A stretch of 64,000 nt of DNA, taken from contig CAWDIY010000036.1 in assembly GCA_963802455.1 (NCBI GenBank), positions 16,052-80,051 on the forward strand, written 5' to 3'. Position numbers and translations under genes: made by a program. Of this stretch, positions 3,166 through 44,410 are shown in pieces. Source of the stretch: an uncultured Alphaproteobacteria bacterium (GTDB lineage: Bacteria; Pseudomonadota; Alphaproteobacteria; Rhizobiales; Rhizobiaceae). The notes beneath the pieces are model-generated. The model saw only the letters and a program-made list of their open reading frames with translations, was not told the DNA's origin and searched no databases. Position 1 is the stretch's first letter. Every line of letters begins with the position of its first letter.

Positions 3166-3642
3166 ATGCCGACCATCGCGCCTGAAAGTCCTTTGGCACC
3201 GGACCTGAAGTTGCTGATGCGGCGGCATTCCGATGAGATGCATTTGCATAGCCCGACCGCAAGCATCCACATGCTGGATGCTTCGAAACTGGCGGCGCCC
3301 GGCATCTGGTTTTTCGTGATGCGCGATGAAGGGCAGGCCATCGGCATGGGCGCAGTCAAGCGCATCGATGACAGTCACGCCGAGATCAAGTCGATGCACA
3401 TTCTGTCCGAGCGGCGCGGGCAAGGCTCGTCGCGGCAGATGCTGGATCATCTGGTTGATCATGCGCTGAGCCAAGGTTTTAAACGCCTCAGTCTCGAGAC
3501 CGGCAGCCAGGCCAGCTTCAAGCCGGCGCATAATCTCTACCGTTCAGCCGGATTTGCCGATTGCGGACCGTTTGAGGGCTATGTCCCGGACCCGAACAGC
3601 GTGTTCATGACACGTGAAATTTCGGCAAGCATGGGGAGTTGA
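3166..3642 (+). CDS. GNAT family N-acetyltransferase
   Basis: ATG 3166 is preceded by gggaagggga. Acetyl-CoA motif region: ILSERRGQGSSRQMLDHLVDHA. The ORF-track start at 3100 overlaps the upstream gene and was not used. Confidence 0.8.
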   Translation: MPTIAPESPLAPDLKLLMRRHSDEMHLHSPTASIHMLDASKLAAPGIWFFVMRDEGQAIGMGAVKRIDDSHAEIKSMHILSERRGQGSSRQMLDHLVDHALSQGFKRLSLETGSQASFKPAHNLYRSAGFADCGPFEGYVPDPNSVFMTREISASMGS

Positions 3643-3646
3643 TGCG

Positions 3647-4895
3647 ATGTCCCTGACGCCCAACATGAAAATCAACAGCGCCCGGCTCTGGGACTCGATC
3701 ATGGAAATGGCGAAGATCGGGCCGGGGATTGCGGGCGGCAATAACCGGCAGACGCTGACGGACTCGGACTCGGAAGGCCGCCATCTGTTCAAGCGCTGGT
3801 GCGAGGCGGCGGGGATGTCGATGGGCCTTGACACGATGGGCAACATGTTCGCCACGCGCCCCGGCGAGGACAAGAACGCCCTGCCCGTCTATATGGGCTC
3901 GCATCTCGACACGCAGCCGACCGGCGGCAAATATGACGGCGTGCTCGGCGTGCTCGGCGCGCTGGAAGTGGTGCGCACGATGAATGATCTTGGCATCAGG
4001 ACGAAGCATCCGATAGTCGTGACCAACTGGACCAATGAGGAAGGCGCGCGCTTTGCACCCGCCATGCTGGCGTCCGGCGTGTTCGCGGGTATCCACACCG
4101 AAGACTATGCCAAGGGGCGCACGGATCTGGATGGCAAAGTGTTCGGCGACGAGCTGACGCGCATCGGCTGGGTGGGCGATGAAAAAGTCGGCGCGCGCAA
4201 AATGCATGCGATGCTGGAGCTGCATATCGAGCAGGGGCCGATCCTGGAGGCCGAGGGCAAGGACATTGGCGTCGTCACGCATGGGCAGGGCCTGTGGTGG
4301 CTGGAAATCACGCTGACCGGCAAGGAGGCGCATACCGGCTCGACGCCGATGGCGCTGCGCGTCAACGCCGGCCTCGGCATGGCCCGCATCACCGAGCGCG
4401 TGCACCAGATCGCCATGAGCCATCAGCCGAACGCCGTCGGCGCGGTGGGGCAGGTGAAGGTCTTCCCCAACTCGCGCAATGTCATTCCCGGCAAGGTGAT
4501 TTTCACCGTCGACATCCGCTCGCCGGAGCTTGCCAAACTCGACACAATGCGCGGCGAAGTCGAGCGCGCGGCGCACAGCGTGGCGAAGGAGCTCGGCCTC
4601 GGCTGCGCCATCGAGCCGGTCGGCCATTTCGATCCGGTGACGTTTGATCCGGCGCTTGGTGAAGACAGTCCGCGCCGCCGCCGAACGCCTCGGCTATTCG
4701 CACATGGACATCGTCTCCGGCGCCGGCCACGACGCCTGCTGGATCAACCGCGTCGCGCCGACCGTGATGGTGATGTGCCCGTGCGTCGGCGGGCTGTCGC
4801 ACAATGAGGCGGAGGAGATTTCGCCGGAATGGGCGGCGGCGGGGACGGATGTGCTGTTCCATGCGGCGGTGGAGACGGCGGGGGTGGCGGGGTGA
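3647..4895 (+). pseudogene. M20-family Zn amidohydrolase (N-carbamoyl-beta-alanine / N-carbamoyl-L-amino-acid amidohydrolase type), one +1 frame break near 4658
   Basis: ORF 3614..4807 continues in ORF 4644..4895: ...VGHFDPVTFDPAL|VKTVRAAAERLGYSHMDIVSGAGHDACW.... An extra g at gg 4658-4659 accounts for the shift. ATG 3647 follows the GNAT stop. Confidence 0.8.
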
Positions 4896-4910: not shown

Positions 4911-5027
4911 GGCTTCGCCGGACCCCCACCCCTAACCCCTCCCCACAAGGGGGAGGGGGACTAAAGAGCGCTCTGGAACCCCTCCCCCTCGTGGGGAGGG
5001 GCAAGGGTGGGGGCGCCTCGCGCCGAG
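4911..5027. repeat. REPIN (inverted doublet of family-1 REP units)
   Basis: Unit A is gacccccacccctaacccctccccacaagggggaggggg. Unit B is gaacccctccccctcgtggggaggggcaagggtgggggcgcc and is approximately the reverse complement of A. Each unit holds a cccctcccc/ggggagggg hairpin. Confidence 0.85.
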
Positions 5028-5058: not shown

Positions 5059-5421
5059 ATGCCCCACGCGATGACCACTGGAGCCATCAGCCGCGCCCGC
5101 TCCCTCCGGCGCAACATGACGGAGGGCGAGCGGAAGCTTTGGTCAGAGCTGCGGGAGTTCCGGCAGCTCTATGGCGTTCACGTGCGTAAGCAGGCCCCTA
5201 TTGGACCCTATATCGCTGACTTTGCCATTCATTCGAAGAACCTGATCATCGAAGTTGATGGCGAGCATCATTTCACACCGGATGGAATGGCACGGGATCA
5301 AAAGAGGGATTCTTGGTTTGCCTCACAGGGCTATAAGACAATCAGAATGACAACAGGTGAATTGTCAGAGTCCTTCGATGGCTGCGTGGAAGAAATCATG
5401 CGTGAAGCGGGGCTGATGTGA
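5059..5421 (+). CDS. DUF559 endonuclease-domain protein (Vsr-like PD-(D/E)xK fold)
   Basis: 120-aa ORF with the family signature LRRNMTEGERKLWSELR...PIGPYIADFAIHSKNLIIEVDGEHH. It is roughly half identical to the paralog at 7835-8203 and is flanked by family-1 REPs. Confidence 0.8.
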   Translation: MPHAMTTGAISRARSLRRNMTEGERKLWSELREFRQLYGVHVRKQAPIGPYIADFAIHSKNLIIEVDGEHHFTPDGMARDQKRDSWFASQGYKTIRMTTGELSESFDGCVEEIMREAGLM

Positions 5422-5440: not shown

Positions 5441-5505
5441 GCGCTTCGCTCTGGAACCCCTCCCCCTTGTGGGGAGGGGAAGGGGTGGGGGTCGCGAGCG
5501 CAGCG
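5441..5505. repeat. Single family-1 REP unit (B orientation)
   Basis: gcgcttcgctctggaacccctcccccttgtggggaggggaaggggtgggggtcgcgagcg. Confidence 0.8.
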
Positions 5506-5597
5506 AGCCACGCAAGAACAACATCGGGATCGTCCCGACTCACAGTACGCAAATTGTCCAACCCAACGTTGGCAAACTTTCCGGCAGGTTTTTTAGT

Positions 5598-5716
5598 GGG
5601 CGCTTCGCGCCGACCCCCACCCCTAACCCCTCCCCACAAGGGGGAGGGGGACAAGCAAGCTCGATAGAACCCCTCCCCCTCGTGGGGAGGGGCAGGGGTG
5701 GGGGCGCCTCGCGCCG
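5598..5716. repeat. REPIN (inverted doublet of family-1 REP units)
   Basis: It has the same A-spacer-B organisation as 4911-5027 and is near-identical to that copy. Confidence 0.85.
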
Positions 5717-6113
5717 TAGGCCCAATTGTTGTCTAACCCGCGGACGGTGGAGTTAGTTGTATGAAATTTTGGCAGGTTTGCATGCAGACAAAGGCTTCAT
5801 TCGCCGCAATGGTTTAATATTTGTATCTGTCACTCTTAGCCTTAGCGTGTTGCGGCGTTCCCCAAGAACTTGAAGAAAATGCCGAGACGCTGAAGGCACA
5901 ATTTTCTTTGGCTGACCGAGAGACCGTGTTGACTGAGCAGTTCGTCAAAACAGCTGTGCTCAAACCACGATTGTGGTGCTTTCACGGAAGAACAGGCAAG
6001 TCTGCTTCTCGACCGCTACCTCAAGAGCAAGATCGCATTGCTGAGAAAAAGCTGATGGAATCGACGATGACCAGATGCTCAAGCGGAAAAGCAATCTGCT
6101 ACATTCAATCTAA

Positions 6114-7776
<1,663 letters not shown>

Positions 7777-7782
7777 AAACTG

Positions 7783-7832
7783 AACTCCCCTCCCCCTTGA
7801 GGGGAGGGGCCGGGGGTGGGGGCGAGCGCAGC
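7783..7832. repeat. Family-1 REP unit (B orientation), left inverted repeat of the DUF559 cassette
   Basis: Positions 7798-7824, tgaggggaggggccgggggtgggggcg, are the exact reverse complement of 8222-8248. Confidence 0.9.
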
Positions 7833-7834
7833 AA

Positions 7835-8203
7835 ATGTCTCCAGGAGTGGTAGCTAAATTTTCAATCTCGAAGGCACGGCGTCTTCGGAGGGAAATGTCA
7901 GAAGGTGAGAAGCATCTTTGGAGTCAGTTGAGGACACTGCGAAATTCAAATGGGATTCACGTCAGGAGGCAGGCGCCGATTGGACCTTACGTGGCCGATT
8001 TTGCCATTCACGCTGCCAAGTTGATCATTGAGGTGGATGGTCCGATGCATATGGACGAGACGCGGCGCGAAAGGGACAAGGTGCGGGATGACTGGTTTTT
8101 GCACGCGGGATATCGGGTCATTCGTTTCCGGACGGAAGAAGTCATGACTGCCTGGTCTGATTGCGCTGAACGGATTTTGAGGGAAGCAGAGGCATCAAAT
8201 TGA
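7835..8203 (+). CDS. DUF559 endonuclease-domain protein (Vsr-like PD-(D/E)xK fold), paralog 2
   Basis: 122-aa ORF: LRREMSEGEKHLWSQLR...PIGPYVADFAIHAAKLIIEVDGPMH...GYRVIRF. It sits 10 nt after the left REP and 18 nt before the right REP. Confidence 0.8.
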   Translation: MSPGVVAKFSISKARRLRREMSEGEKHLWSQLRTLRNSNGIHVRRQAPIGPYVADFAIHAAKLIIEVDGPMHMDETRRERDKVRDDWFLHAGYRVIRFRTEEVMTAWSDCAERILREAEASN

Positions 8204-8217
8204 CTCGGACCATTGAG

Positions 8218-8256
8218 GCGCCGCCCCCACCCCCGGCCCCTCCCCTCAGGGGGCGC
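8218..8256. repeat. Family-1 REP unit (A orientation, outer hairpin truncated), right inverted repeat of the DUF559 cassette
   Basis: Positions 8222-8248, cgcccccacccccggcccctcccctca, are the reverse complement of 7798-7824 (27/27). Confidence 0.9.
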
Positions 8257-8261
8257 TCGAC

Positions 8262-9045
8262 GTGAACGCGCGCAGTAATCTCCGCCCGCGGCCTCTCCCT
8301 CACCTTCGGCACAAACGACGGCCCCGTCCACGCGCTGTCCAACATCAATCTCGACATTAACGAGGGCGAGTTTGTCTCGCTGATCGGCCCCTCCGGCTGC
8401 GGCAAGACCACGCTTTTGCGCGTCATCGCCGATCTGCAAAGACCGACCGCCGGGACAATCTCCGTCAATGGCATGAGCCCGCAGCAGGCGCGGGAGAGCC
8501 GCGCTTATGGCTATGTGTTTCAGCAGGCGGCGCTGTTTCCGTGGCGCACGATTGCGGACAATATCGCGCTGCCGCTGGAAGTGATGGGACTTTCCAAGGC
8601 GGAGGCCTCCGCACGCGTGGCGGAAAATCTCGACTTGGTCAACCTGTCAGGCTTTGAGAAAAAGTACCCGTGGCAGCTTTCCGGCGGCATGCAGCAGCGC
8701 GCCTCCATCGCCCGGGCGCTGTCTTTGCAGCCGCAGATGCTGTTGATGGACGAGCCGTTCGGGGCGCTGGACGAGATCGTGCGCGACCATCTGAATGTGC
8801 AGCTTCTGGCGCTGTGGGCGAAGACGAAGAAGACCGTTGTGTTTGTGACGCACTCGCTGCCGGAGGCGGTGTTTCTGTCAACGCGCATCGTGGTGATGTC
8901 GCCGCGGCCGGGGAAGATACATGAGGTGATTGAGTGTGACCTTGGGCCGGAGCGGCCCTTGGAGATACGTGAGACGCCGGAGTTTTTGCGGATCGGGCAA
9001 AGGGTAAGGGACGGGTTAAGGGCGGGGCATAGTTATGAGGAGTGA
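8262..9045 (+). CDS. ABC transporter ATP-binding protein (NitT/TauT family), 5' end unresolved
   Basis: Walker A GPSGCGKTT, signature LSGGMQQR, Walker B LLMDEPFGALD. The conserved frame opens at 8266 (TRAVISARGLSLTFG...) without a start codon. GTG 8262 is one frame off, so a +1 break within about 8265-8275 is likely. Confidence 0.75.
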
Positions 9046-9062: not shown

Positions 9063-9172
9063 CAGCGCGAGGCGCCCCCACCCCTGCCCCTCCCCACAAG
9101 GGGGAGGGGTTCCAGAGTGCGCCCTTGTCCCCCTCCCCCTTGTGGGGAGGGGTTAGGGGTGGGGGCGCGGAG
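9063..9172. repeat. REPIN (inverted doublet of family-1 REP units)
   Basis: gcgcccccacccctgcccctccccacaagggggaggggttc ... gtccccctcccccttgtggggaggggttaggggtgggggcgc. Confidence 0.85.
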
Positions 9173-44104: not shown

Positions 44105-44189
44105 TGGTGCCCTGAAGAGGACTCGAACCTCCACGCCTTGCGGCACACGGACCTGAACCGTGCGCGTCTACCAGTTCCGCCATCAGGGC
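44105..44189 (-). tRNA. tRNA-Leu (anticodon CAG), CCA encoded
   Basis: Minus strand: GCCCTGATGGCGGAACTGGTAGACGCGCACGGTTCAGGTCCGTGTGCCGCAAGGCGTGGAGGTTCGAGTCCTCTTCAGGGCACCA. It has a 7-bp acceptor stem, anticodon stem CACGG/CCGTG with loop TTCAGGT, a long variable arm and a GTTCGAGTC T-loop. Confidence 0.9.
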
Positions 44190-44239
44190 AACGGGGGTTC
44201 CTTTAGGCAGGGCGGGGGATGGTGTCAACGGGGGTGGCA

Positions 44240-44404
44240 GCCTTCCCCCTTGCGGGGAAGGTGGACGCGGAGCGGACGGATGGGGGTGGTGCGAAAGATG
44301 CTGAAGGCGCAGGATGAAGCGCTGCGGCCATGTTCTGCGCCACTGCATCTTCCTCACCACCCCCATCCGCGGCTCACGCGACACCTTCCCCGCAAGGGGG
44401 AAGG
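44240..44404. repeat. Large inverted repeat (about 60-bp arms) built on family-2 REP units
   Basis: Left arm 44240-44301 (gccttcccccttgcggggaaggtggacgcggagcggacggatgggggtggtgcgaaagatgc) is an imperfect reverse complement of right arm 44345-44404. The central spacer is 43 nt. Confidence 0.8.
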
Positions 44405-44410
44405 CTGGAG

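What the first reader, a model, noticed from the sequence alone, without database searches (positions are those of the whole stretch)
7783..8256. DUF559 nuclease gene bracketed by a perfect 27-bp inverted REP pair (RAYT-like architecture without a RAYT)
Positions 7798-7824 (TGAGGGGAGGGGCCGGGGGTGGGGGCG) and 8222-8248 are exact reverse complements (27/27). The 369-nt DUF559 CDS (7835-8203) sits between them with 10-nt and 18-nt spacers. The repeats are units of the family-1 REP that forms REPIN doublets nearby. The second DUF559 paralog (5059-5421, roughly half identical) also lies between a B-oriented unit (4976-5020) and an A-oriented unit (5611-5650). Both cassettes occupy intergenic gaps of an otherwise contiguous pyrimidine catabolism/transport cluster, and no transposase or RAYT is present. 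Known REP/REPIN populations are associated with a Y1 transposase (RAYT) gene flanked by inverted REPs. Here the flanked gene encodes a Vsr-like PD-(D/E)xK protein. Two readings follow. DUF559 may be a REP-associated nuclease that maintains, mobilises or polices this REP family. Alternatively, REP-DUF559-REP may itself be a small mobile cassette. I do not know of either being described.
Basis: partly seen in the sequence, partly recalled or inferred. Interest (0 to 1): 0.7.

Follow-up and report, generated by a model that had tools for sequence, protein, structure and literature searches.

The report
Nuclease gene with its own inverted repeats
A small DUF559 (Vsr-like) nuclease gene bracketed by inverted copies of a G-rich hairpin repeat is one copy of a module conserved across many bacteria, built like the known transposase-plus-REP systems but around a different kind of enzyme, and I found no description of it in the papers I could search.

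Summary
7798-7824 and 8222-8248 are exact reverse complements around a DUF559 gene (7835-8203).

It is not chance and not peculiar to this genome.
- In 80 loci from other Alphaproteobacteria, 55 of 84 homologous genes have such an inverted pair, against 0 of 1700 same-size control segments.
- The repeat unit is about 80-fold denser within 300 nt of DUF559 genes than elsewhere.
- A second DUF559 lineage carries a different repeat sequence with the same design: 24 of 47 genes, against 0 of 310 controls.
- In the pyrimidine operon, three intergenic sites hold cassettes in different genomes. Occupied sites carry repeats (32/35); gene-less sites rarely do (4/59).
- The gene is under purifying selection (dN/dS about 0.1).
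- The repeat arms are conserved beyond the neutral rate and match each other within a cassette.
- The unit is a covarying hairpin plus a G-rich tail that mirrors the hairpin's purine arm, so it could form a triplex.
- No RAYT was found in the sequence sampled.

Best reading: a nuclease-plus-cognate-repeat element, analogous to RAYT/REPIN or to a homing element. The mechanism is inferred, not shown. I found no prior description in the held library.

The parts
7786..7824 (+). Left repeat unit of cassette 2. Pyrimidine arm 7787-7796 CCCCTCCCCC, loop 7797-7800 TTGA, purine arm 7801-7809 GGGGAGGGG, linker 7810-7812, G-rich mirror tail 7813-7822. It starts 10 nt after the hydA stop (7774-7776) and ends 10 nt before the ATG.
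   Evidence: Covariance model R1 54.9 bits, E 3e-10. nhmmer E 1e-7. DNA fold shows the 9-bp hairpin.
7835..8203 (+). DUF559 endonuclease gene, copy 2 (122 aa), Vsr/EDxHD-type PD-(D/E)xK fold.
   Evidence: Pfam PF04480 E 3.6e-29. PDB 3HRL E 1e-13. AlphaFold pLDDT 87.5. Foldseek top hits 3HRL, I-Bth0305I 3R3P, Vsr 1CW0/1VSR. Invariant E25, D55, E66, D68, H72, D81, R84. dN/dS 0.11 against the L001 ortholog.
8222..8253 (-). Right repeat unit of cassette 2, inverted. Tail 8224-8234, purine arm (as CCCCTCCCC) 8237-8245, loop 8246-8248, outer arm cut down to GGGGG 8249-8253. The ABC ATPase start (GTG 8262) follows.
   Evidence: I6. R1 22.8 bits. The orthologous unit in L001 has the full hairpin.
4921..5016 (.). 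Doublet D1: (-) unit 4921-4959, 18-nt spacer (4960-4977), (+) unit 4978-5016. REPIN-like long hairpin. Its inner (+) unit is the left arm of cassette 1.
   Evidence: (D2, I7). DNA fold -41.6 kcal/mol, z -5.6.
5059..5421 (+). DUF559 endonuclease gene, copy 1 (120 aa), 53% identical to copy 2. It sits between the M20 amidohydrolase (hyuC-like) gene and hydA.
   Evidence: The same site is occupied in 14 other genomes and empty in L001.
5456..5493 (+). Extra single (+) unit just after copy 1. With the (-) unit at 5612-5650 it forms a gene-less tail-to-tail pair (arms 5457-5505 / 5601-5649, 78% complementary, 95 nt between them).
   Evidence: (I2).
5612..5707 (.). Doublet D2: (-) unit 5612-5650 (the right arm of cassette 1) and (+) unit 5669-5707. 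It is a 91% direct repeat of D1.
   Evidence: (D2: 4921-5025 vs 5612-5716).
9072..9167 (.). Solo doublet D3 between the ABC ATPase (stop 9043-9045) and the permease (ATG 9199). Fifteen other genomes hold a DUF559 cassette at this site. It is probably the remnant left when recombination between two flanking doublets removed the gene.
   Evidence: DNA fold -52 kcal/mol, z -8.9. The site is empty, with overlapping genes, in L001.
3614..4895 (+). Upstream host gene, an M20-family amidohydrolase (hyuC-like), with a frame break near its 3' end.
6313..7776 (+). Host gene hydA (dihydropyrimidinase-like amidohydrolase), with two frame changes. Cassette 2 begins 10 nt after its stop.
8262..9045 (+). Host ABC-transporter ATPase gene. 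The start region is one base short relative to L001.

Best explanation
The feature is one copy of a conserved two-part genetic element. One part is a gene of about 120 codons for a DUF559 endonuclease with a Vsr/EDxHD fold. The other part is the gene's own terminal inverted repeats.

Each repeat unit is a 9-10-bp C-rich/G-rich hairpin, a short linker, and a G-rich tail that is the mirror image of the hairpin's purine arm. The tail ends a few bases before the start codon on the left. An inverted copy follows the stop codon on the right. An outer partner unit often makes each end a palindromic doublet.

The element sits between cistrons of conserved operons. Here it is in the pyrimidine-catabolism and transport operon, where three different gaps are used in different genomes. 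Elsewhere it is between glyQ and glyS, hisS and hisZ, or pntAA and pntAB. It is mostly inherited vertically, kept at low copy under purifying selection, and gained or lost over evolutionary time. It leaves or spawns gene-less doublets that have multiplied in some genomes.

Mechanism I think most likely (inferred). The nuclease recognises the folded repeat at its own ends, as a hairpin or cruciform plus third-strand tail, and nicks there. Recombinational repair of that damage then copies or retains the cassette and its gene-less derivatives. This would be a nuclease-driven counterpart of RAYT/REPIN or of homing. The same repeats probably also limit translation of the nuclease inside the host operon's mRNA.

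Shown: the anatomy, the linkage of gene and repeat, the conserved structure, the selection, the patchy site occupancy, and the absence of a RAYT in the sampled DNA. Inferred: that the protein cuts DNA, that its substrate is the repeat, and that this drives copying.
For: Linkage of gene and repeat.
- Inverted-repeat score >=40 in 55/84 genes against 0/1700 controls.
- In a second DUF559 lineage carrying a different repeat sequence, 24/47 against 0/310.
- 159/191 units lie within 300 nt of a DUF559 gene, 1.80 per kb against 0.023 per kb.
- Operon sites with the gene carry repeats in 32/35 cases; sites without it in 4/59 (p 2e-17).

Cognate pairing.
- The arms of one cassette are closer to each other than to arms of other cassettes: edit distance 3.4 against 7.8, 0/10000 permutations, own partner the best match in 26/34.
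- One metagenome contig (L093) has a type-1 gene with type-1 repeats and a type-2 gene with type-2 repeats in the same operon.
- Distant homologs also carry such units in S. meliloti (114-nt arms, 96%), Azospirillum and Deinococcus.

Functional constraint.
- dN/dS is 0.07-0.17 in most ortholog pairs.
- The left arm is identical over about 42 nt between the window and L001 (my count), while 61% of synonymous sites differ.
- 95.9% of hairpin cells pair, with 4 compensatory pairs; 0/500 shuffles reach that, and slid registers are much worse.
- The tail mirrors the purine arm: mirror beats direct register in 53 units, ties in 39, loses in 6. Arm A faces T or A in 220 of 221 cases; arm G faces G in 1097 of 1107.

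Nuclease.
- PF04480 hit; fold matches 3HRL, the I-Bth0305I homing endonuclease and Vsr.
- Acidic and histidine residues are invariant.
- A Caulobacter DUF559 protein causes DNA damage in vivo (PMC12907096). The EDxHD family includes a proven homing enzyme (PMC3239194).

Gain and loss.
- L001 lacks cassette 1 and the site-3 doublet.
- Three sites of one operon are used across genera.
- Solo doublets occur at sites occupied elsewhere.
- The repeat has amplified without the gene nearby in Pannonibacter (>=40 units in 351 kb) and S. meliloti (24 places, 1 gene).

No RAYT.
Against: - No biochemical or genetic datum links the protein to the repeat.
- Copy number is low, 1-2 per Mb-sized replicon.
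- Paralogs are old (53% identity). Protein clades roughly follow the insertion site. So there is no sign of recent transposition.
- No target-site duplication or clean boundary was seen between the window and L001.
- Long purifying selection is unusual for a purely selfish homing gene.
- The left unit is present without a right unit in Shinella and Sphingomonas, and its tail sits where a ribosome-binding site should be. That fits a purely regulatory role.
- E. coli ycjD has no such unit.
- A 120-aa nuclease has no obvious strand-joining activity.
- Whole genomes were not available, so a RAYT or another mobilising enzyme elsewhere in the source genome is not excluded.
- The mirror-register statistic chooses the best offset, so part of its perfection is built in.
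Confidence: 0.45

Rival explanations
1. The repeats are cis-regulatory or insulating parts of the gene and have no role in mobility. The G-rich tail is the ribosome-binding site. The hairpin, and the complementary C-rich 3' unit, occlude it or create an RNA-processing site. This keeps a potentially toxic nuclease at low level while it rides inside a host operon transcript, much like fold-back inhibition of IS10 transposase. The nuclease itself would be a host repair enzyme of the Vsr type. Gene-less doublets would be by-products.
For: - The tail ends 3-12 nt before the ATG in most loci, and GGGGGU can pair with the anti-Shine-Dalgarno sequence (my reading of the sequence).
- The left unit alone is kept in Shinella and Sphingomonas.
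- Cassettes are co-oriented with the operon and have no promoter of their own upstream.
- Long vertical inheritance and dN/dS of about 0.1 suggest a selected function.
- Caulobacter VsrA, a DUF559 protein, behaves as a mismatch-type nuclease tied to cytosine methylation (PMC12907096).
Against: - It does not explain the outer partner units, the gene-less doublets and arrays far from any DUF559 gene, or the mirror-repeat tail in the right arm, where it is antisense.
- Purine-motif triplets (G*G:C, T*A:T) are a DNA feature rather than an RNA one (textbook knowledge).
- No methyltransferase gene is next to the cassettes.
Confidence: 0.25
2. DUF559 is a free-standing homing endonuclease. Its target lies in the conserved neighbouring genes or in the empty intergenic junction. 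It spreads between genomes by cutting cassette-free alleles, which are then repaired from a cassette-bearing copy. The repeats are packaging and are not the substrate.
For: - The fold is closest to the I-Bth0305I catalytic domain after 3HRL, and the EDxHD family is a proven homing family (PMC3239194).
- Cassettes are wedged between cistrons of highly conserved gene pairs: hyuC|hydA|ABC|permease, glyQ|glyS, hisS|hisZ, pntAA|pntAB.
- Occupancy of identical sites is patchy across genera.
- Duplicated junction fragments surround one insert.
Against: - The protein is only the nuclease domain, without the NUMOD/HTH DNA-binding region of I-Bth0305I (PMC3239194).
- Homing genes are not known to carry conserved inverted repeats.
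- It does not explain arm-arm matching, gene-less repeat populations, or repeat conservation across unrelated insertion sites.
Confidence: 0.15
3. The repeat is an ordinary REP/REPIN family moved by a RAYT or other enzyme encoded elsewhere in the genome. DUF559 genes merely attract such repeats, target them, or tolerate them.
For: - The repeat occurs without a nearby DUF559 gene: Pannonibacter plasmid arrays, S. meliloti pSymB, and solo doublets.
- Doublets fold like REPINs.
- Whole genomes could not be searched.
Against: - No RayT homolog in the window, in 1.49 Mb of loci, or in Sinorhizobium and Shinella chromosome-sized records.
- The units lack the GTAG/CGTC tag of RAYT-associated REPs (PMC3733652).
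- Different DUF559 lineages each carry their own repeat type with fixed geometry relative to start and stop codons. Passive accumulation would not produce that.
Confidence: 0.1
4. Coincidence: REPs pile up in any permissive gap, and the DUF559 gene just happens to lie in one.
For: Only the weak fact that a few gene-less sites hold the repeat.
Against: 0/1700 and 0/310 controls; 80-fold enrichment; 32/35 against 4/59 sites; conserved spacing to start and stop codons.
Confidence: 0.02

Closest known systems
REP/REPIN-RAYT systems (REP-associated tyrosine transposases; Nunvar 2010, Bertels & Rainey 2011, Ton-Hoang 2012; PMC3116915, PMC3337134, PMC5581495)
   Same: A low-copy, vertically inherited gene under purifying selection, flanked by inverted copies of a short extragenic palindromic unit. 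The same units form inverted doublets that fold as long hairpins and occur, in varying numbers, elsewhere in the genome. Each gene lineage has its own repeat type.
   Different: The enzyme is a PD-(D/E)xK Vsr/EDxHD-fold nuclease, not an HUH Y1 transposase. There is no GTAG/CGTC tag. The unit has a mirror-repeat G tail. The tail sits at a fixed distance from the start codon. The dispersed population is small in most genomes sampled. The gene sits inside operons, at several sites of one operon.
EDxHD homing endonucleases (I-Bth0305I; Taylor 2011, PMC3239194) and free-standing phage homing genes
   Same: A related catalytic fold (Foldseek TM 0.53-0.76 to 3R3P). A small nuclease gene inserted between or within conserved genes. 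Patchy presence at identical sites.
   Different: No intron or intein, no NUMOD/HTH DNA-binding region, conserved inverted structured repeats, and gene-less repeat derivatives. No cleavage data.
Vsr very-short-patch repair endonuclease and Caulobacter VsrA (PMC12907096)
   Same: Same superfamily fold. VsrA carries a DUF559 domain and damages DNA in vivo when its cognate methylation is missing.
   Different: The Pfam hit is DUF559, not the Vsr family. There is no neighbouring cytosine methyltransferase. Nothing in the Vsr literature I read mentions flanking repeats.
Insertion sequences and MITEs
   Same: Terminal inverted repeats around a single gene. Gene-less derivatives made of two arms and a short spacer (window 5457-5649 and 44230-44410; Pannonibacter arrays).
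   Different: No transposase of any known class. No target-site duplication seen. Low copy number and old paralogs.
Rhizobial intergenic repeats (RIMEs, Sm-repeats, AB and C palindromes; mentioned in PMC2573895)
   Same: Dozens of conserved structured intergenic repeats of unknown function in Rhizobiales. The S. meliloti unit found here (24 places on the chromosome) may be one of them. That is my recollection and I could not check it.
   Different: The papers I could read report no link of those repeats to a DUF559 gene. The original RIME paper was not available.
H-DNA / intramolecular triplex motifs and the Neisseria pilE G-quadruplex (textbook knowledge, not tested here)
   Same: A homopurine mirror repeat with the G*G:C, A*A:T, T*A:T code. 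Type-1 units also have four G tracts with 1-4-nt loops. Such structures are known to provoke nicks and recombination.
   Different: Here the mirror repeat is attached to a hairpin and tied to a nuclease gene. Structure formation is untested.

Membership tests
DUF559 (PF04480), Vsr-like PD-(D/E)xK nucleases | Match to the family profile above the curated cut-off | tested here: met
   101.3 and 94.8 bits against a cut-off of 20.6.
DUF559 (PF04480), Vsr-like PD-(D/E)xK nucleases | Restriction-endonuclease-like fold shared with 3HRL, 3R3P and Vsr | tested here: met
   AlphaFold pLDDT 87.5. Foldseek: 3HRL E 2e-6, TM 0.66/0.84; 3R3P; 1CW0; 1VSR. Sequence hit to 3HRL at E 1e-13.
DUF559 (PF04480), Vsr-like PD-(D/E)xK nucleases | Conserved catalytic acidic and histidine residues (E...D...H...D) | tested here: met
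   E25, D55, E66, D68, H72, D81 are invariant in 24 sequences. Residue-by-residue mapping onto Vsr was not done.
DUF559 (PF04480), Vsr-like PD-(D/E)xK nucleases | Nuclease activity | not testable with these tools
   Needs biochemistry.
Vsr (very short patch repair) | Match to the Vsr family profile, and genetic linkage to a cytosine-5 methyltransferase | tested here: not met
   Pfam lists DUF559, MTES_1575 and DUF2726, but not Vsr, at E<=0.01. The neighbours are catabolic and transport genes.
REP/REPIN-RAYT system | Short extragenic palindromic units, also arranged as inverted doublets | tested here: met
   9 units and 3 doublets in the window. Doublets fold at -42 and -52 kcal/mol, z -5.6 and -8.9.
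REP/REPIN-RAYT system | Associated gene flanked by inverted units | tested here: met
REP/REPIN-RAYT system | Associated gene encodes an HUH Y1 (IS200/IS605-type) transposase | tested here: not met
   The flanked gene is DUF559. There is no RayT homolog in the window or the loci.
REP/REPIN-RAYT system | Conserved GTAG or CGTC tetranucleotide at one end of the unit | tested here: not met
   Alignment of 62 units: the position before the C-arm is variable and no GTAG/CGTC is present. Criterion taken from PMC3733652.
REP/REPIN-RAYT system | Large dispersed population of units in the same genome | tested here: inconclusive
   None outside the operon in this 64-kb window. 0.023 per kb in related loci. 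Tens per replicon in S. meliloti and >=40 per 351 kb in Pannonibacter. The source genome was not available.
Homing endonuclease gene (free-standing, EDxHD) | Presence/absence polymorphism at the same site in related genomes | tested here: met
   Window against L001 at sites 1 and 3. Site table across 38 operons.
Homing endonuclease gene (free-standing, EDxHD) | Sequence-specific DNA-binding region in addition to the nuclease domain | tested here: not met
   122 aa: a single domain plus two N-terminal helices. I-Bth0305I has NUMOD/HTH regions (PMC3239194).
Homing endonuclease gene (free-standing, EDxHD) | Cleavage of the cassette-free allele | not testable with these tools
   Needs an in vitro or in vivo assay.
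Insertion sequence / MITE | Terminal inverted repeats | tested here: met
Insertion sequence / MITE | Transposase gene of a known class; target-site duplication | tested here: not met
   The only ORF is DUF559. No duplication at the window/L001 boundaries.

The most novel reading that the evidence does not exclude
DUF559 nucleases are the cognate enzymes of a second, RAYT-independent class of REP/REPIN-like elements that is widespread in Alphaproteobacteria and present beyond them. The repeat unit folds as a hairpin plus a third-strand (triplex) tail. The nuclease nicks this structure. Host recombination then copies or maintains both the gene cassette and its gene-less doublets. This would give a function to a very large 'unknown' protein family and to rhizobial intergenic repeats that have been unexplained for some 30 years.
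Probability: 0.35. Interest if true: 0.9.

Novelty: new variant of a known kind. Interest (0 to 1): 0.8.

Why it matters
DUF559 is one of the large bacterial protein families still without an accepted role. Structured intergenic repeats of Rhizobiales (RIMEs, Sm-repeats, palindromes) have had no known function or mobilising enzyme since the 1990s.

A specific, conserved pairing of the two would make both questions testable with one purified protein and a few oligonucleotides. So far that pairing rests only on sequence comparison.

If the nuclease acts on its repeats, REP-type elements are not tied to HUH transposases, and a Vsr-fold nuclease can sustain a repeat population. The hairpin-plus-mirror-tail design would also be a natural, evolutionarily conserved candidate for an intramolecular DNA triplex with a dedicated protein partner.

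Practically, these cassettes sit inside operons and their repeats are translated by gene callers. Examples are C-terminal 'PTPNPSPQGGGE' tails and N-terminal extensions of the ABC ATPase. Recognising them would clean up annotation in thousands of genomes.

Tried and rejected
- Exact-protein look-ups of both window proteins found nothing. The source genome is not in the collections. The closest relative is a Phyllobacteriaceae MAG (L001).
- Rfam at gathering and permissive thresholds gave only spurious microRNA-precursor matches to the doublets.
- Recombination breakpoint at the cassette. Nucleotide identity to L001 drops from 86-88% upstream to 76-80% downstream. The same gradient appears in protein identities to more distant genomes. 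I attribute it to gene-specific constraint and did not use it.
- Target-site duplication or clean insertion boundaries: none seen. At site 1 the whole 1.4-kb spacer differs from L001.
- G-quadruplex as the conserved feature. It fits type-1 and type-3 units but not type 2, which has only two long G tracts. The mirror-repeat relation holds in all types.
- E. coli ycjD as a model case has no such repeat.
- Single-unit folding energies are not better than shuffles, because any C-rich plus G-rich sequence folds. Covariation, not energy, supports the hairpin.
- A first fuzzy-regex repeat scan timed out and was replaced.
- A six-sequence alignment was too diverse for the metagenome scan.
- Literature searches for DUF559, COG2852, RAYT/REPIN/Vsr, RIME, EDxHD and the repeat sequence found no description of the association. 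The original RIME paper is not held.
- Operon linkage as a clue to a metabolic role was rejected. More distant cassettes sit in unrelated operons: glyQS, hisSZ, pntAB, ABC|ABC.
Full report
OBSERVATION

- 7798-7824 and 8222-8248 are perfect reverse complements. The repeat finder extends the pair to 32 nt at 97%.
- Between them lies a 122-codon ORF (7835-8203) that hits Pfam DUF559 at E 3.6e-29.
- The ORF at 5059-5421 hits the same family (E 3.6e-27) and is 53% identical to it.
- With one scoring scheme the flanking inverted-repeat scores are 62 and 73. The maximum was 31 in 1500 same-size segments elsewhere in the window.

Each repeat unit has a fixed design: a pyrimidine arm (CCCCTCCCCC), a 4-nt loop, a purine arm (GGGGAGGGG), a 3-4-nt linker and a G-rich tail (GGGGTGGGGG).

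All nine units of the 64-kb window lie between 4921 and 9167:
- a doublet (-)(+) at 4921-5016;
- gene copy 1;
- a single (+) unit at 5456-5493;
- a doublet at 5612-5707;
- (+) unit 7786-7824, gene copy 2, (-) unit 8222-8253, whose outer hairpin arm is truncated;
- a solo doublet at 9072-9167.

The host genes are a class III aminotransferase, an M20 amidohydrolase, a dihydropyrimidinase-type amidohydrolase, an ABC ATPase, permeases and an NMT1-type binding protein.

IS THE ASSOCIATION REAL?

I scanned one genome per bacterial species with a peptide pattern from the protein. This choice is blind to the repeats. It returned 80 loci from many alphaproteobacterial genera.
- Of 84 DUF559 genes with enough flank, 55 have an inverted pair scoring >=40. 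None of 1700 random same-size segments of the same loci does.
- The anatomy is constant. The hairpin faces outward. The tail faces inward and ends 3-12 nt before the ATG. The inverted copy begins about 3-18 nt after the stop.
- A profile of 62 units finds 191 units in 1.49 Mb. 159 of them lie within 300 nt of a DUF559 gene: 1.80 per kb against 0.023 per kb elsewhere. The covariance model gives the same picture.
- A second, independent sample used a different DUF559 lineage (the Shinella / S. meliloti type) in metagenome contigs. It gave 24 of 47 against 0 of 310 controls.
- There the repeats have a different sequence, for example CCCTCTCCCC-loop-GGGGAGAGGG-TTA-GGGTGAGGGG, but the same design.
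- Single distant homologs carry such units in S. meliloti (114-nt arms, 96% identical), Azospirillum and Deinococcus.
- Shinella and Sphingomonas have the upstream unit only. Neisseria and Synechocystis have a degenerate one. E. coli ycjD has none.

CONTEXT

About 45 of the 51 closest loci carry the gene in the same operon as the window, at three different gaps:
- M20 amidohydrolase | hydA (site 1, as for copy 1);
- hydA | ABC ATPase (site 2, as for copy 2);
- ABC ATPase | permease (site 3).

At site 3 the window has only the solo doublet.

I counted sites across 38 operons. 32 of 35 gene-occupied sites carry repeat units, against 4 of 59 gene-less sites (Fisher p 2e-17). So repeats do not pile up on their own in these gaps.

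The closest relative is L001, whose neighbouring proteins are 93-95% identical.
- It has cassette 2 at the same place.
- It has a 53-nt repeat-free spacer where the window has copy 1.
- It has overlapping ABC and permease genes where the window has the solo doublet.

More distant cassettes sit between glyQ and glyS, between hisS and hisZ, between two ABC genes, and between pntAA and pntAB. The common theme is a co-oriented position between cistrons of conserved operons, not pyrimidine metabolism.

Protein clades roughly follow the site, with exceptions. Copy number is 1-2 per Mb-sized replicon. Inheritance therefore looks mainly vertical, with occasional gain, loss or switching.

CONSTRAINT

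Most orthologous gene pairs give dN/dS of 0.07-0.17 (two of the 12 computable pairs give 0.45 and 0.62), similar to or only somewhat above the host neighbours at 0.05-0.09. The protein is kept by selection.

The repeats are constrained too.
- Between the window and L001, 61% of synonymous sites in the gene differ, yet I count the left arm as identical over about 42 nt.
- The two arms of a cassette resemble each other more than arms of other cassettes: mean edit distance 3.4 against 7.8, 0 of 10000 permutations. The own partner is the best match in 26 of 34.
- One contig (L093) has, in this same operon, a type-1 gene with type-1 repeats and a type-2 gene with type-2 repeat doublets.

STRUCTURE OF THE UNIT

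- In 62 distinct units, 95.9% of hairpin cells pair, and four of nine pairs show compensatory changes. 0 of 500 shuffles reach the observed values, and registers slid by 1-3 nt pair in only 60-78% of cells.
- The tail is a mirror image of the purine arm. Examples: GGGGAGGGG/GGGGTGGGG, GGGGAGAGGG/GGGTGAGGGG, GGGGAGAAGG/GGATGAGGGG, GGGGGAGGG/GGGAGGGGG.
- Among 98 units with asymmetric arms the mirror register beats the direct one in 53, ties in 39 and loses in 6.
- An A in the arm faces T (144) or A (76) and once G. A G faces G in 1097 of 1107 cases. Shuffling tails among units never reaches the observed score.
- G*G:C, A*A:T and T*A:T are the triplets of the antiparallel purine-motif DNA triplex (textbook knowledge). 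So the G strand of a unit could fold as a hairpin with its tail as third strand.
- This is an inference. The offset was chosen to maximise the score, and no structural experiment exists.
- Type-1 and type-3 units also contain four G tracts. Type 2 does not.
- Doublets fold as long hairpins: -42 and -52 kcal/mol, z -5.6 and -8.9.

THE PROTEIN

- The AlphaFold model (pLDDT 87.5) is closest to 3HRL, a Neisseria DUF559 protein.
- Next come the catalytic domain of the homing endonuclease I-Bth0305I and Vsr (sequence hit to 3HRL).
- E25, D55, E66, D68, H72, D81 and R84 are invariant.
- Published work shows that the EDxHD family, to which DUF559 is assigned, includes a true homing enzyme (PMC3239194, PMC3424549, PMC9403480).
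- A Caulobacter DUF559 protein, VsrA, causes an SOS response when a solitary cytosine methyltransferase is missing (PMC12907096).
- None of these papers mentions flanking repeats.

REPEATS WITHOUT THE GENE

- Solo doublets occur at low density in the related loci.
- S. meliloti has 24 places of its unit on a chromosome-sized record with one DUF559 gene, and about 5 on pSymB with none.
- A 351-kb Pannonibacter plasmid has at least 40 type-1 units, arranged as (+)-106 nt-(-)-80 nt arrays. No DUF559 gene lies in the 40 kb I read.
- The two doublets flanking copy 1 are 91% identical direct repeats. Recombination between them would delete the gene and leave one doublet. That is how I read the solo doublet at 9072-9167 (inference).

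NO RAYT

E. coli RayT finds nothing credible in the window or in the 1.49 Mb of loci held at that point (best E 0.3). It finds nothing in alphaproteobacterial records of the plasmid collection, although it finds Neisseria, Pseudomonas and cyanobacterial homologs there. The units lack the GTAG/CGTC tag of RAYT-associated REPs (PMC3733652). The whole source genome could not be searched.

INTERPRETATION

Coincidence is excluded. Gene and repeats form one conserved unit, and that unit has the hallmarks of a REP/RAYT pair with a different enzyme.

My preferred mechanism is that the nuclease recognises and nicks its folded repeats, and that recombination then copies or retains cassette and doublets. 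It rests on analogy and on the fold, and I give it 0.45.

The main rival (0.25) is that the repeats only regulate expression.
- The tail sits where a ribosome-binding site belongs.
- The 3' unit is complementary to it.
- Some lineages keep only the left unit.

The two are not exclusive. The other rivals are a classical homing gene whose target lies in the neighbouring genes (0.15) and an unseen RAYT (0.1).

NOVELTY

Full-text searches for DUF559, COG2852, RAYT/REPIN with Vsr, RIME, EDxHD and the repeat sequence itself found no report of this association. The library lacks most subscription journals, and the original RIME paper was not available, so prior description cannot be excluded.

I rate it a new variant of a known kind: a gene with its cognate extragenic palindromes. 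If the nuclease-driven mechanism holds, it would be a new kind.

Noticed in passing
window 3614-4895, 6313-7776, 8255-8275: Four frame breaks in 5 kb of the operon. The M20 amidohydrolase ORF stops at 4807, although homology runs to 4895 (one gap against L001). hydA changes frame near 6466 and again near 7030-7127. The ABC ATPase start lacks one base relative to L001 (gcgcgc-ca against gcgcgcgcc). Either these are assembly indel errors or the operon is decaying.
   Followed up: partly
window 44230-44410: A gene-less tail-to-tail module of a second repeat type: CCTTCCCCC-TTGC-GGGGAAGG, 17-nt linker, GGATGGGGGTGG, about 75 nt, then the inverted copy. It lies next to the tRNA gene at 44108-44189 (- strand). 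Its tail again mirrors its purine arm.
   Followed up: partly
window 5222-5249 and 8001-8028: The same sigma-70-like match (TTGCCA, 16 nt, GATCAT; 9 of 12) lies at the equivalent codons inside both DUF559 genes and points downstream. It could feed transcription into the next operon gene, or it may be just conserved coding sequence.
   Followed up: no
window 5710-6312: About 600 nt of lower-GC sequence upstream of hydA with no counterpart in L001. The ORF 5821-6255 has no Pfam hit. Origin unknown. It is part of the 1.4-kb insert at site 1.
   Followed up: partly
L093 700-2500 and 4990-5700: In this metagenome contig the site-1 insert is bracketed by duplicated pieces of the host junction: the hydA 5' end three times and the M20 gene 3' end twice. 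It also carries a CdiI_3 immunity-like gene. Site 3 has a 352-nt tandem duplication with type-2 doublets. This suggests recombination-mediated insertion or local duplication.
   Followed up: partly
L090 16538-17201, 20001-20552, 31637-31964 (Pannonibacter plasmid NZ_CP013069.1): Arrays of alternating (+) and (-) type-1 units with about 106-nt and 80-nt spacers fill intergenic gaps of paa and transporter operons. There are at least 40 units on the 351-kb plasmid, and no DUF559 gene in the 40 kb read.
   Followed up: partly
L001 10366-10440; L093 4366-5211; proteins P0020, P0025: Gene callers read through the repeats. The ABC ATPase is called from a TTG overlapping the DUF559 stop, which gives an N-terminal 'APTPGPSPRGGGE' stretch. 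Several DUF559 proteins get C-terminal 'PTPNPSPQGGG' tails. These are annotation artefacts caused by the repeat.
   Followed up: partly
L083 2908-3328 (E. coli K-12 ycjD): E. coli's DUF559 gene ycjD also sits directly after an ABC ATPase gene (sapF). It has no G-rich unit. A perfect 16-bp AT-rich hairpin overlaps its start.
   Followed up: partly
L089 1825-4349 (Synechocystis plasmid): A DUF559 gene lies between a 175-aa 'DUF1156' fragment and a 434-aa hypothetical protein. It may be an insertion that splits a methylase-like gene.
   Followed up: no
The search for homologous proteins list: Many of the closest DUF559 homologs come from contigs of only 0.5-2 kb. That is expected if the flanking repeats or presence/absence variation break metagenome assemblies at these cassettes.
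   Followed up: no
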